Part shown: one piece after another, positions 27,103-36,100 of the stretch
How positions within the stretch are numbered: position 1 is the first letter of the stretch
How the letters are laid out: the number at the start of each line of letters is the position of its first letter
NCBI GenBank assembly: GCA_020137815.1
Contig: CM035360.1
Span: 3,844,001-3,908,000 of the forward strand
DNA from: Hormiphora californensis
Taxonomy: Eukaryota > Animalia > Ctenophora
Direction: 5' to 3'
Length of the DNA: 64,000 nucleotides
Program-made: the position numbers and the translations under genes
The notes under the pieces: generated by a model
The model's input: only the letters and a program-made list of their open reading frames with translations
Databases searched by the model: none
Told to the model about the DNA's origin: nothing

Positions 27103-30100
27103 ATGGATTTCTCAAATTTCGTGCTCCTTGTGGAGATACTGGTGTTTCTGGCTGTTCTCCTCCCCGCCTTTTACAAGATCCCCATACCACCAAAGATCAC
27201 TGACCACCAACAATCAATCCGGAACAAACAGATTGGGTATGTACAAATCAGCAATGACGAGAATTCTTTAAATCTGGCAAATCCATTCAATCTAGTTTAA
27301 AACTTATTTGAAATTTAAAACTTCCCGCCCACACTGAATCCCTTCAACTAACACACCTGTTCCCCAGATTATTTCTGTTTTGCCTTACTCTGGAGGTTCA
27401 TTGATGCAGTTCTCCTGAAAGCAGGGAGATACAGTACGACTTAATTCTGGCTCCTGTATTATTGCTGAACAGGTAACTTTTACAGTTTGTAAGATACAGA
27501 AAGAACCGTTTTTGATCGGGGATAGAGGGGTGGTTGGTAGTACATACATACCCACCTAGCCTGTTACTTTCTGATCAGCGGGAGGAGGGGGTTTGGATGA
27601 AGTTTCTCACGTTACTATCTAAGATTTTACTCACCCCCACTACAGACCGCAACTCACAATCACATTTCCCATCACCGGAAACGACACTTAGTAGCGTGTA
27701 AGTTTACACAGTGCCCTTTCTTCCTCTATGTTCCTTTCTTCTCAGTTCTCTCTCTCTCTCTCTCTCTCTCTCTCTCTCTCTCTCTCTCTCTCTCTCTCTC
27801 TCTCTCTCTCTCTCTCTCTCCCCACACAACTATGTTCCTATCTCTCTTTCCCCTCGTGTTCATTATAAAACGAATATATTATAAAATATTCACATGTATT
27901 ATTATTTGAGTATTTAATTCCCACATCCTCTCAGGTTACCTCTCCTCACAGTTGGCTGGATATTACTGCTCGAGGTTGTTCTACACCACTCGCCCACTAG
28001 TCAGCGTGCAATGGTGATGGCACTAGTCAGCACCGGTACTGTGTGCGGCGCCGGGTTTTACTACAGGAGATGTTTTTATATCTCCCAACACCTGCCCGTG
28101 CACTTTGCCCCTTCAAATCACCAGCAGGTACATGAGTTGGTGTTATAGCTCACACTGAATTTTATTTCAACCCGCTCTCTGTGAGGGCTCGGCAGAGCAA
28201 GTATGTGTTAGATAAGTTGCATATGTTACATTGTTTGTTTTTTAGTACTAGCTGGAATGGGTCTAAGAGCATGTGTGTGTGTGTGTGTGTGTGTGTGTGT
28301 GTGTGTGTGTGTGTGTGTGTGTGTGTGTGTGTGTGTGTGTGTGTGTGTGTGTGTGTGTGTGTGTGTGTGTGTGTGTGTGTGTGTGTGTGTGTGTGTGTGT
28401 GTGTGTGTGTGTGTGTGTGTGTGTGTGTGTGTGTGTGTGTGTGTGTGTGTGTGTGTGTGTGTGTGTGTGTGTGTGTGTGTGTGTGTGTGTGTGTGTGTGT
28501 GTGTGTGTGTGTGTGTGTGTGTGTGTGTGTGTGTGTGTGTGTGTGTGTGTGTGTGTGTGTGTGTGTGTGTGTGTGTGTGTGTGTGTGTGTGTGTGTGTGT
28601 GTGTGTGTGTGTGTGTGTGTGTGTGTGTGTGTGTGTGTGACACGGTTTTGACACGGTTTTTGACACGGTTTTAAACATAATCTGGCCACATGTCTCCATG
28701 GGCGTGCAGATTGGAGGATAGCACAATATTATGCGTAACGAAGTTACTAATATATGAGTGCTATCCTCCGTGTGCAAACTTATAAGACACACTCCTGGTA
28801 AGATGATAAATTCACTTCACTACTCTAGCCAAGTCACGGGTTTTCAGGAACCTGTCGCCAGCCGAGCAATATTGTCAGTACTGTTGATAGCATTAGCAAT
28901 GCTATCCCAACGGGCGCGCTTGGAGAACAACGCGGCGACAAAACGAGCGAGGAGCCCTACTGTCCGGGGTGGGTGGGATGCTATGTCACAGGTGAGGTGG
29001 GTAATGGGTCTTTGTTTGGGTAGGGAGGTACCGAGGGAGGGCTCATGGTCAGGTCCATTTCGAATACTCTCTAGAAGTTCCTGGCGTTCCGGGTTGTATA
29101 GGTCACAATCATCCAGGGCATGTGATTCCGTCTCCACAATTTCCTCTCCCAACGTTAATTTACAAGAGGGACAATGACGGTTCTCTCTGGGTATGCTCTG
29201 GTGGCGCCCTGTTTCGATTGCAAGGCAGTGGGCACTCATTCTAAGTTTTGCCATGGCACTTCGATGTTCATAGTTAGACACCGAGAGGGCATATGGTGGT
29301 AGTCCAGGTTGGTGGTCAATTCTTCTGTATAACTCGAGTTTTCTAGAGGTCGTCAATGAGGCGTTCCAGGCGGCTTCATAGGTATCCCGTAGCTTCTGTC
29401 TCACAAAGGGGACTCCAAACTCGCGTGAAGGGATGTGGGTTCCATTCGTGCTCCTAGTAGTTACTTGACCGGGTTCAACTTTCCTGCCACTAATCGAGGC
29501 ATGTGCATCGAAGTGGTTCATGTTGTAGAGTGGGTCCAGAGCTAACAGAGGCCGCAGAGCGGTATACCACGGGAGAGAAAGGTTTTTCTGTTCGTGGTAG
29601 GCGGCGTTGACAAAGCAATGGGTGTCTATTGCTTTTACCCGTTTTAGAAAACTTGCTGCATGACCGGTGGCTTCTACGGAGAGGGGTCTTGAGCACGTAT
29701 CACTCCATACTGCTGCATTAGGGGCGTACTTGTTGACTCCTAGACACCACTTGAGATAGGATAGTTGGAGTCTTTCTGCTTTGTCAGCTGCTAATGTCCT
29801 AAGTAGGTTGTCCTTTGGCCGACCCTCCGCCGTGGCTTTGATAAGTTTCTTAGTCCCTCCGCCTAGGGGGGCCCAGATTGCAGCTCCATAGAGGAGGATC
29901 GGTTTGATCAGGGCTGAGAACAGCGCTTTGCTGGCTTTGATGGAAATCTTGTCTCTCCTGATTGTTCTCTTGAGAGAGTGTAAAGCTCGTACTGCTTTGA
30001 GGTGCAGGTCCTCTCTACAGGTAGTGGTGAAATCTCCAGACGCTGTGATCTTGATCCCAAGGTAACAGTAGCTATCCGTCTGTTCGATAAGACCGTTCTC

Positions 30101-33100: not shown

Positions 33101-36100
33101 GGCATAGTTCACGTAGTTCTTCTAACGTCTCCTGTCTCTTGGGTCCTGTCGTCGTTTCCCATGATCTTCTGTTTATAACGTGGCAGTTGTAGCCCCTACC
33201 AAGTGTTCCAGGGTTTGCGGATCTCATCATGCTGTCCGTTATGAGAGCAACCTTACGAGCGGGTCCTGTGTTGCGCTGCTCTGTATTGCGCTGTTCCGTG
33301 TTTCTGTTGGTCCTGGTGTCTTCTGGGGTCCTGTTGCTGGTACGGTTTAAATTACCGCTGTTCCTAGTACCTCCTGAGTTTGGGTTGCGGTTCCTCCTTC
33401 CGCCATTGTTAGCGGCCCATGTGATGTTCCTCTGTGGGAGTACGGGTCCGTTTTGCTGTGCACTGGAGTGTGTGTGTGTTGTTCCATCAGGACTGGTTCT
33501 ATGTGTACGAGATTCCTCAATTTTCTCCACTCTTTCGTAGATCTTCTTCAGAAGCTCACTATCCTCACGGTAGAAGGCACTCTCCGTGTACTTCTTCATC
33601 TCCTTTCTCAGCTCTTCAACCATAGCTTTGGTTTCGTCAATTTCCTCTTTCATCTTCACAACTTCTTCTGATGTTACCTTCAGCAGGGCGTTGAGCTCCT
33701 TTATTGATTCCATGGTGCTAGCCCCTGGCAGATTGGGAGTCGGGGCAGTGGTCGGGGCAGTGGAGGTTTTAGAAGTTTTGGGGATCAGCAGCGAGAGACG
33801 GCAAACTGATTCTTTCAGTTCCCTCATTTCCGCTTTTATGTCGATCATCGTCTCCTCGGTCTTGTGGATCACTGTTACATCACAGAGTGTGGTAGATAGC
33901 CTTGTCTTCAGCTGAATGGGAGCAAAATGCTAGACACAGTATGAGAGCAATGAAAAAGTGAAAAGGTGAGAGAGAGAGTGGTTGTGCATCACAGTGTGAT
34001 GAGTAACTGATGTGGGTTACCGAGATGTAGTTAATGTAACTAGTGTGGCATGGTGGATTTGTGTAAGGGACAGCAGAGCTCCTAGAACAAGAGAAATGCT
34101 GGTCTGAACAAAAAACACAAAAAACACAACCCGGGGCTCTAGGTACACTGTCGCACTCGCTCCATGGCGCGCTGCTCGGTGGCGGCAGGTTCAGGGAATC
34201 ACAATGAAAAAGATAGTTGAACATTATATATATCACTGAATCGCTAATTTCACAGCGCCTCCACAGCTCAGTTGGTAAGGCGCTCCCCAACGCAACGCGC
34301 AAGGGGCCAGAGAGGGAGGGGAGATCGACTCCCGACTTTGCAAAATTTTTGCATATTTCATTGCCATTTTTTATCTGGAAAGTGTTCATCCGGGGAGAAT
34401 GTCCAACCATGGTAGTAGCACTCAAACACATCAAACACATCAGACACACCATGATTATTATTAAATACCGGTGTGCTACTGCAGGAGATCGTCGGTCTTG
34501 GGGCTGGTGTCCTGCTCCTGTGGAGTAGATATCCCGGTGTACCACAGTAGAGTCTTGGCCATAGTCGTCGGTCTGGGTTTCCTTTGTTACCGTGTCCGTA
34601 TCACCCATGCTCGGGGGAGGTGGTGGTTAGACTTAGTGTGGGCACTAAGGGGTGGGATGTTGTATGGGAAACTCGAAAACCGGGAACCTCGGGACTATCA
34701 GCTTGTTGAAACAGACCTACCCTTTGGAAGGGGGTCTGCCAGGGGGTCTTTGAGAAGAAGGGGCGGTAGATTGGGCACCGCCCTGGCAGCCCGAGAGAAG
34801 AAAGAGTGTGGGTGGTTGCTGTACAAGCTTGTAGCAGTTGACGCTCCACTAGGAAGTGGATTAAACACTGGAGATCCGAGAGCAGCTGCAACCAAATATT
34901 TTGTGCAAGAACAAGTGTGTGTGTGTGTGTGTGTGTGTGTGTGTGTGTGTGTGTGTGTGTGTGTGTGTGTGTGTGTGTGTGTGTGTGTGTGTGTGTGTGT
35001 GTGTGTGTGTGTGTGTGTGTGTGTGTGTGTGTGTGTGTGTGTGTGTGTGTGTGTGTGTGTGTGTGTGTGTGTGTGTGTGTGTGTGTGTGTGTGTGTGTGT
35101 GTGTGTGTGTGTGTGTGTGTGTGTGTGTGTGTGTGTGTGTGTGTGTGTGTGTGTGTGTGTGTGTGTGTGTGTGTGTGTGTGTGTGTGTGTGTGTGTGTGT
35201 GTGTGTGTGTGTGTGTGTGTGTGTGTGTGTGTGTGTGTGTGTGTGTGTGTGTGTGTGTGTGTGTGTGTGTGTGTGTGTGTGTGTGTGTGTGTGTGTGTGT
35301 GTGTGTGTGTGTGTGTGTGTGTGTGTGTGTGTGTGTGTGTGTGTGTGTGTGTGTGTGTGTGTGTGTGTGTGTGTGTGTGTGTGTGTGTGTGTGTGTGTGT
35401 GTGTGTGTGTGTGTGTGTGTGTGTGTGTGTGTGTGTGTGTGTGTGTGTGTGTGTGTGTGTGTGTGTGTGTGTGTGTGTGATGGAATTGGCATAATGTGAT
35501 CAAATCTTTGACTCGTGCCCTACACTATACGGTATCCCGGAGTCCGAAACCTGGACTCTGTTTCGTGCAAATGTAAAGGAGGGTTAGAAAAAATCCCGGA
35601 CTCTGTTTTAGTAGCTGGGGCACACAAAAAGTGTGCAGAGGGACCCCGACTGCCTTGGCCCGTTCATTGGCTGGGCAGGAAAAATGGACATTTTCATTTG
35701 TCACTCCCTGAAAAGTAAAGCCATGGCAGACACACATGTTATAGACAAGTGAAACCTGATCAATTGGAAATGTGGAAAGTACTACTGCACGCACGTCGTA
35801 CACACTGCACACGCGTCATATAATCGGGATTCGTTTGATCAACTCGATACATTTATGACGTGTGTATGGGCGTGTCACTGTGATCCACATATTGAGTAAA
35901 TTGTCGGTAAAAAGGAGATCATTAGTTTTGTGTTTGTACTCTGAAAACATCCATTGAGCACGGTAAAGGGAGTACAACTGATTATTATTACATTGTAATT
36001 GTGTATCATTACATCTTTCTCAGAGAAAGTTCTTCTGTGCTATGTAGTTCCCCCTCCATTGAGTTTGTATTTTCTCTCCTCCCTCAGATTCTGATAATCC

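What the first reader, a model, noticed from the sequence alone, without database searches (positions are those of the whole stretch)
28272..35479. Intact RTEX-like retrotransposon embedded exactly in (CA)n: candidate new microsatellite-specific lineage
Seen: both junctions fall directly on same-strand (CA)n, with no poly-A and no other TSD. The sequence beyond the 5' array differs from the element's 3' UTR, so this is not a tandem copy. ORF2 motifs (PILLYG..W; R.S.H.L.IE.GR..C..C..E.H...C) plus the esterase ORF1 point to RTEX. Established: the microsatellite-specific APE elements I know of belong to the R1 clade (Waldo, Mino) and Tx1 clade (Kibi, Koshi). Inference: target specificity evolved independently in an RTE-group element, giving a safe-harbour insertion system. 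One copy cannot prove specificity.
Basis: partly seen in the sequence, partly recalled or inferred. Interest (0 to 1): 0.78.

Follow-up and report, generated by a model that had tools for sequence, protein, structure and literature searches.

The report
Comb-jelly LINE favouring CA repeats
This is a broken copy of a young jumping-gene (LINE) family, likely from a comb jelly, that sits inside a CA repeat, and several shortened sister copies also end in CA repeats, so the family likely prefers these repeats as landing sites, a habit described so far for other LINE groups.

Summary
The element is real: 6,275 bp on the minus strand between perfect (CA)n arrays of 565 and 368 bp, with an unbroken 1,245-aa APE-RT ORF2, an esterase ORF1 and no poly-A. 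Two corrections. The copy is not intact: sister copies carry at least 1,125 more bases of ORF1 at 33899-33904. And it has its own 11-12 bp tandem tail before the CA. A hand count on one RT block favours RTEX (26/38) over Waldo (8/38) and Koshi (9/38); no labelled tree was possible. The target test used contigs of two samples: of 12 displayed 5' junctions of truncated copies, 5 enter same-strand (CA)n, 2 the opposite strand, 5 something else; none enters (TC)n, which is far commoner in the window. An 84% relative from Pleurobrachia bachei has the same tail-CA junction; 19 distant relatives hold no CA array. So a recent CA preference is likely, strict specificity is not shown. The likely guide is pairing of a CA-ending RNA with the nicked (TG)n strand. 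No RTE-group precedent in nine paper searches; Repbase was not searchable. The scan had not noted this family before.

The parts
28272..28639 (-). 3' flanking perfect (CA)n array, 368 bp
28638..28672 (-). Element tail: three copies of an 11-12 bp unit (A4-5 CCGTGTC) whose last copy runs into CACA; A-run length and unit number vary among copies
   Evidence: indels at 28656-28673 and an extra unit before 28659
28640..28843 (-). 3' UTR with predicted stem-loops, no polyadenylation signal
   Evidence: fold z = -3.5, 0 of 200 shuffles as stable
28844..32581 (-). ORF2, 1,245 aa, unbroken; its start overlaps the ORF1 stop by 11 nt
29105..29173 (-). C-terminal Cys/His motif of ORF2 (CPSC ... HALDDC)
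30047..30835 (-). Reverse transcriptase domain (aa 583-845)
   Evidence: PF00078
31802..32515 (-). APE endonuclease (aa 23-260) with the conserved N, E, Y, D-N, D and D-H positions present
   Evidence: PF03372; alignment; motifs
32571..33904 (-). 3' remnant of ORF1 (425 aa from the first ATG at 33848) with SGNH esterase motifs TDS, HLGIND, DGIHP
33899..33904 (-). Junction of an internal, frame-shifting deletion of at least 1,125 bp of ORF1; 6-bp direct repeat
   Evidence: loose ends and pieces; P0122; frames
33905..34608 (-). 5' piece of ORF1 (reads on to a stop at 33883) with two predicted hydrophobic helices
   Evidence: indels of other copies at 34447 (+6) and 34545 (+3) keep the frame
34609..34914 (-). 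5' UTR; no Rfam match, no spliced-leader motif
34915..35479 (-). 5' flanking perfect (CA)n array, 565 bp

Best explanation
This is an internally deleted copy of a young, multicopy, likely RTEX-clade LINE family, likely of a comb jelly, that likely inserts by preference into (CA)n microsatellites, likely because its RNA ends in CA and pairs with the nicked (TG)n strand. Shown: the anatomy; the deletion; the tandem tail; CA/TG arrays at 7 of 12 displayed 5' junctions of truncated sister copies. Inferred steps: (1) an ordinary APE nicks the (TG)n strand; (2) the transcript has no poly-A signal, ends in the tail's ...GUGUCA and would read on into the downstream (CA)n, so it pairs with the freed (TG)n end and primes reverse transcription, with slippage that varies the tail; (3) the cDNA end anneals through 2-4 nt of TG microhomology to the (CA)n top strand, so the 5' junction also lands in the array and any duplication is hidden; (4) each new copy again has (CA)n behind it, which would keep the preference going without a specialised endonuclease. 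The preference is recent, since distant relatives have related tails but unique flanks. It is a preference, not shown to be strict.
For: 5' junctions of truncated copies cannot be explained by the element's own tail. Same-strand (TG)n follows at 28671, 32505, 34411, 31458 and 33301; at 28671 a short imperfect array is followed by non-repeat letters, as expected of a host microsatellite. No displayed row of 40 is (TC)n, although TC arrays cover 698 bp (20 arrays) of the window against 18 bp (1 array) of CA outside the element. With a generous background of 0.02, 5 of 12 has p about 2e-6 (ignores display bias). Microhomology at the four internal same-strand junctions is 2, 3, 4 and 2 nt; 16.5% of element positions give 2 or more by chance. 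The P. bachei gene model P0001 (84% identical) reads through its 3' end as ...KPCQTVSHTHTH, the translation pattern of the same tail plus CA; it is the only one of the stored proteins with such a run. 0 of 19 related loci (L001-L018, L081) hold a CA/TG run of 6 or more units; 9 show a clear tandem tail of another unit, several followed by unique DNA. The APE hairpin region before the VDY motif is nearly the same in the window (FTSIQHNGCAVVDY) and in P0008, whose family L001 has another tail (FTSIQKNGCSVIDY), so no endonuclease specialisation is visible there. PMC6007223 (passages) proposes that RTE 3' repeats influence site choice or priming by base pairing.
Against: Only 24 of 174 and 16 of 83 loose ends were displayed, at most 6 per run, ranked by the tool; ends in an abundant repeat may be favoured. 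The five CA/TG junctions at 31458, 31830, 32505, 33301 and 34411 were shown for X6 only; none of the 12 rows shown for X5, a run of the same sample, is a CA end, and an X5 contig crosses 32505 unbroken. Microhomology also fits library chimeras. Two junctions (28792, 31830) join the opposite strand of the repeat, which plain target-primed insertion does not predict. One 41-letter junction (29611) is unrelated to CA and to the window, one (29885) is an inverted piece of the element, one (30012) is TG-rich but not an array, two (28679, 29024) are short non-CA ends. The background comes from one window. 3' flanks of other copies were not visible, because contigs ran over the stretch's end. No RNA, no empty site, no biochemistry. 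Which APE loop sets specificity is recalled from L1 and R1 work, not tested.
Confidence: 0.55

Rival explanations
1. The APE itself recognises and cuts (TG)n, as proposed for the target-specific R1 and Tx1 clades, and the family is strictly CA-specific.
For: Same junction data; no (TC)n junctions; PMC3812793 (passage) says sequence-specific cleavage is believed to play a major role for Waldo, Mino, Kibi and Koshi.
Against: Non-CA and opposite-strand junctions exist; the hairpin region is conserved with relatives that have other tails; a family with a different APE (65% identical, P0005) uses the same 3' end, though its targets are unknown.
Confidence: 0.2
2. The (CA)n is the element's own product: it inserts at unrelated sites and writes the arrays by slippage, and the CA at 5' ends comes from template jumps or library chimeras.
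For: RTE elements generate microsatellites inside their target duplications (PMC2887409, passages). Both arrays are long and perfect. Opposite-strand junctions and single-run support fit jumps or chimeras.
Against: No duplication is seen outside the two arrays (outer flanks). The 28671 junction passes through a short imperfect array into other DNA. CA junctions occur in both samples. Chimeras should also join TC arrays; none was displayed.
Confidence: 0.15
3. Passive accumulation: the element inserts at random and copies survive in or near CA arrays, as argued for Drosophila Waldo-A and Waldo-B.
For: Precedent cited in PMC3812793. The genome-wide CA content is unknown (no genome held).
Against: The family is young (most contigs 95-100% alike); junctions fall exactly at the repeat with microhomology; distant relatives show no CA flanks.
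Confidence: 0.07
4. Assembly artefact: a collapsed element was stitched between two unrelated (TG)n arrays.
For: Arrays of 368 and 565 bp cannot be spanned by short reads; no read across either junction was seen.
Against: The copy carries a deletion and several substitutions that the main contigs of all four runs lack, which a collapsed consensus would not; the 3' junction recurs in P. bachei.
Confidence: 0.03

Closest known systems
RTEX clade (RTEX-1_NV, RTEX-2_BF, RTEX-1_BF; alignment in PMC10294476 supplementary file 23)
   Same: APE-RT ORF2; esterase ORF1 (RTEX is one of the esterase-bearing clades, PMC3905857 and PMC5408684 passages); best hand count on a 38-residue RT block: 26, 21 and 15 of 38.
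   Different: No microsatellite targeting was found for RTEX in the papers searched; ORF1 of this lineage is very long (relatives 1,068-1,596 aa) with predicted hydrophobic helices.
MinoAg1 (AC repeats) and Waldo (ACAY repeats), R1 clade
   Same: APE-type LINE found inside CA-type microsatellites (PMC3812793 passage).
   Different: RT block matches WaldoFs1 at 8 of 38; esterase ORF1; own tandem tail; preference not shown to be strict. Mino itself was not in the alignment seen.
Kibi (TC) and Koshi (TTC), Tx1 clade
   Same: APE-type LINE inside a microsatellite, no separate target duplication visible.
   Different: RT block matches KoshiTn1 at 9 of 38; different repeat; esterase ORF1.
RTE-clade LINEs with 3' microsatellite tails (BovB, plant RTE, lepidopteran RTE)
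   Same: Tandem tail instead of poly-A; tail proposed to influence site choice or priming (PMC6007223); slippage at the tail (PMC2887409).
   Different: Those insert at unique sites with 6-12 bp or longer duplications and 1-2 nt of 3' microhomology; here both junctions, also of truncated copies, fall in the array.

Membership tests
RTEX clade | RT groups with RTEX references in a phylogeny | tested here: inconclusive
   Tree of 95 rows has no labelled reference (quick method; window in a 42-row clade, SH-aLRT 99). Hand count on one 38-aa block that I chose after seeing the alignment: RTEX-1_NV 26, RTEX-2_BF 21, RTEX-1_BF 15, Proto2-1_BF 11, KoshiTn1 9, WaldoFs1 8 (sequences shown). Points to RTEX, is not a tree.
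RTEX clade | ORF2 with APE and RT | tested here: met
   Pfam; no RNase H family listed at E 0.1.
RTEX clade | ORF1 with SGNH esterase (shared with CR1 and L2, so not exclusive) | tested here: met
   PF13472 at 33.0 bits, cut-off 32.9; S, G/N and D-x-x-H motifs.
RTE group | 3' end of short tandem repeats, no poly-A | tested here: met
   feature as tabulated in PMC6007223.
R1 clade (Waldo, Mino) | RT close to R1 references | tested here: not met
   8 of 38 to WaldoFs1 against 26 of 38 to RTEX-1_NV (hand count).
Tx1 clade (Kibi, Koshi) | RT close to Tx1 references | tested here: not met
   9 of 38 to KoshiTn1 (hand count).
Target-specific LINE (functional class) | Most copies have the target at the 5' junction | tested here: inconclusive
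   5 of 12 displayed places same-strand CA, 7 of 12 either strand; display capped.
Target-specific LINE (functional class) | One fixed orientation in the target | tested here: not met
   2 of 7 CA/TG junctions are on the opposite strand; their origin is unexplained.
Target-specific LINE (functional class) | Endonuclease cuts the target selectively | not testable with these tools
   Needs a nicking assay.
Target-specific LINE (functional class) | Empty site holds the target before insertion | not testable with these tools
   No genome held; contigs cannot span the arrays.
Full-length autonomous copy | Both ORFs complete | tested here: not met
   ORF1 lacks at least 1,125 bp and is out of frame; ORF2 is unbroken.

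The most novel reading that the evidence does not exclude
A ctenophore RTEX lineage recently became a (CA)n-targeting element without changing its endonuclease: its RNA picks up CA repeats by read-through and uses them as a built-in guide, so target choice would be reprogrammable by changing the RNA tail, and each insertion would lengthen the array. It would be a third APE lineage with repeat targeting beside R1 and Tx1, caught just after the switch, with non-targeting sister families and a natural endonuclease-swap chimera as controls.
Probability: 0.3. Interest if true: 0.78.

Novelty: new variant of a known kind. Interest (0 to 1): 0.52.

Why it matters
Target-specific APE LINEs are reported mainly from the R1 and Tx1 clades (PMC4640811 passage), and the mechanism of microsatellite targeting is described as not well understood (PMC3812793). 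A young case in the RTE group, with close non-targeting relatives and a chimera that joins a different endonuclease to the same 3' end, would make it directly testable whether the enzyme or the RNA tail sets the target. Microsatellite targeting as such is known, so this extends a known habit to a new clade and phylum. Use as a safe-harbour tool is speculation.

Tried and rejected
No own genome, so no copy census. Exact search for the 3' end in JGI metagenome contigs: 0 matches. Viral contigs: no relative. GTDB contigs: 4 short loci, likely eukaryotic contamination of MAGs. A search for short gene models that start in CA-derived peptide gave 2 proteins, neither with such a start, so it is uninformative. 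ESM Atlas held none of the three sequences tried. PDB search found only R2 and L1 proteins at E about 1e-25 to 1e-14, no help for the clade. The gastropod supplement has PILLYG-bearing rows but no clade labels. The careful tree did not finish; the quick tree is reported. A tRNA-like A-box/B-box stretch at 34264-34334 (+) was rejected: ARAGORN 0, Rfam 0. Loose ends left out of the junction count, with reasons: 33899/33904 (deletion), 29351 (chimeric family), 28811/28850 (variant 3' UTR), 28659 (extra tail unit), 32462/32494, 30567, 33509, 29374 (read by eye as related families), 30213 (3'-side end, origin unknown). Summed contig depth rises toward the 3' end, as expected for truncated copies, but was not used as a copy number. 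Two papers sought by id were not held; PMC5786205 was fetched by a wrong id, abstract seen, not used.
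Full report
Observation. The element lies on the minus strand at 28640-34914 (6,275 bp) between two uninterrupted (TG)n arrays, 28272-28639 and 34915-35479. ORF2 (28844-32581, 1,245 aa) is open and has APE and RT domains; the ORF at 32571-33848 has a GDSL esterase. There is no poly-A and no polyadenylation signal, and no other piece of the element in the window. The 3' UTR folds into hairpins better than all 200 shuffles (z -3.5).

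Host and family. The nearest ORF2 relative is 84% identical and comes from Pleurobrachia bachei, so the host is likely a comb jelly. Six runs of one organism, from two samples and two studies, hold 73-92% of the sampled words. Four were laid. Most contigs are 95-100% alike and summed depth rises toward the 3' end, as for a young family with truncated copies. No genome is held, so copies could not be counted.

The copy is not intact. In all four runs contigs leave the window sequence at 33899 or 33904; one carries 1,125 further letters. The loose end at 33904, translated by hand in the ORF1 frame, gives TISPVLPPT, the same nine residues that precede the shared motif in ORF1 relative P0122. The extra DNA is therefore ancestral ORF1 and the window copy has lost it. 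The two remaining pieces are in different frames. Full ORF1 would be about 1,050 aa or more, like P0124 (1,165 aa). The break has a 6-bp direct repeat; one register gives GC..AG ends, so a template switch and a spliced transcript both fit.

Clade. A tree of 95 RT rows puts the window with P0001 (support 100) inside a 42-row clade (99), but it has no labelled references and only the quick method finished. Labelled rows were visible in a published alignment (PMC10294476, supplementary file 23). A hand count over one 38-residue block, which I picked after seeing the rows, gives RTEX-1_NV 26, RTEX-2_BF 21, RTEX-1_BF 15, Proto2-1_BF 11, KoshiTn1 9, WaldoFs1 8. With the esterase (PMC3905857, PMC5408684, passages) this makes RTEX likely and R1 or Tx1 unlikely.

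Target test. The 3' junction alone is weak evidence, because RTE-group LINEs end in their own repeats (PMC6007223, PMC2887409, passages). The informative ends are 5' junctions of truncated copies. Searches displayed 24 of 174 and 16 of 83 loose ends (overlapping sets, at most 6 per run). After leaving out the deletion, a variant UTR, an extra tail unit, a chimeric family, related families and 3'-side ends (listed under Tried and rejected), 12 places remain. Five enter same-strand repeat (28671, 31458, 32505, 33301, 34411), two the opposite strand (28792, 31830), one is TG-rich filler (30012), one an inverted piece of the element (29885), one a 41-letter unrelated flank (29611; no match in the window) and two are 8-10 letter non-CA ends (28679, 29024). 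Outside the element the window has 18 bp of CA/TG array and 698 bp of TC/GA array in 56,792 bp; no displayed end is TC. With a background of 0.02, 5 of 12 has p about 2e-6, a figure that ignores display bias and rests on one window. The four internal same-strand junctions have 2-4 nt of microhomology; 16.5% of positions would have 2 or more.

Against this: five CA/TG junctions were displayed for X6 only, none of the 12 rows for its sister run X5 is a CA end, and an X5 contig crosses 32505 unbroken. Microhomology also fits library chimeras. The opposite-strand ends are unexplained. In favour of real junctions: both samples show them, and at 28671 a short imperfect array passes into other DNA.

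Spread of the habit. The P. bachei model P0001 reads through its 3' end with the peptide pattern of the same tail followed by CA. Of 19 more distant loci (25-46% is the range for the scan's hits; these are the top 18 and L081), none has a CA/TG run of six units; nine show a clear tandem tail of another unit, several with a related TAAT(C/T)C core and unique DNA behind it. Many of these contigs are incomplete. The preference therefore looks recent.

Mechanism. The APE keeps its conserved positions, and the region before the VDY motif hardly differs from that of relatives with other tails; that this loop shapes specificity is recalled, not tested. I therefore favour guidance by RNA: a transcript without poly-A ends in CA or reads into the downstream array, pairs with the nicked (TG)n strand and primes there; the cDNA end then anneals to the (CA)n strand. 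Variation in A-run length and unit number of the tail fits slippage at priming. Pairing at the 3' end is cited for I, R1Bm and R2Ol in PMC6007223. All of these steps are inferred. An enzyme-specific model remains open. A natural test exists: P0005 is 89-91% identical to P0003 up to the point matching ORF2 aa 1078 and 91% identical to this element after it, and the same switch appears at 29351 in runs X3 and X5.

Novelty. Microsatellite-targeting LINEs are known: Waldo, Mino, Kibi, Koshi, Dong (PMC3812793, passage); target-specific APE families are placed in R1 and Tx1 (PMC4640811, passage). Nine searches listed no RTE-group or ctenophore case; I saw listings and abstract starts for most hits and passages for PMC5753468, PMC11203168, PMC12477816 and the papers cited above. 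Repbase entries, subscription journals and bioRxiv supplements could not be searched, two papers sought by id were not held, and 20 of the 33 supplementary files of PMC10294476 were not searched; a described RTEX CA-targeting family may exist there. Earlier notes of this scan hold nothing like this sequence and no RTEX-microsatellite case.

Verdict. Real element, broken copy, likely RTEX, likely a recent CA preference (about 0.75 for preference by either mechanism), strict specificity not shown. New variant of a known kind; interest 0.52.

Noticed in passing
window 33905-34608 (-); proteins P0124-P0231: ORF1 of this lineage is very long and has predicted membrane helices ahead of the esterase: 14 of 18 ORF1 relatives of 1,000 aa or more have a 19-residue hydropathy of 1.9 or more, all within the first 471 residues, against 1 of 85 ORF2 proteins and 20% of 360 shuffles. 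A membrane-anchored ORF1 would fit the proposed role of lipids in retrotransposition.
   Followed up: partly
proteins P0132, P0157: Two of five long ORF1 relatives scanned carry an AlkB-like 2OG-Fe(II) oxygenase domain (PF13532, E 1.6e-5 and 1.2e-7) between the hydrophobic part and the esterase.
   Followed up: partly
window 29351: A chimeric family shares only the last 700 bp with this element; it is seen in runs of both samples and as P. bachei P0005.
   Followed up: partly
window 33899-33904: The ORF1 deletion has GC..AG ends in one of seven registers, so this copy may come from a spliced transcript.
   Followed up: partly
window 28792 and 31830: Two junctions join the element to the opposite strand of the CA repeat; 28787-28792 is itself ACACAC. 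They may be fold-backs, template jumps or arrays seeded inside older copies.
   Followed up: no
window 28811-28850: A variant of the family has a different stretch here, with a short repeat of GTAAATAA, in three runs.
   Followed up: no
   Followed up: partly
L013 1-96: A related LINE contig begins in an (ACTAAT)n array; its 3' end shows no such repeat.
   Followed up: no
window 18934-20046 (+): EF-1alpha coding stretch; the opposite strand is open for 513 codons (18559-20097).
   Followed up: partly
window 62801-64000 (+): Tc5/pogo-type DDE transposase frame, cut by the window end.
   Followed up: partly
window 22155-22888 and 36427-36715: Minisatellites of period 31 and 19.
   Followed up: no
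L081, L082: Relatives of this LINE lie on short contigs filed in bacterial MAGs, likely eukaryotic contamination.
   Followed up: no
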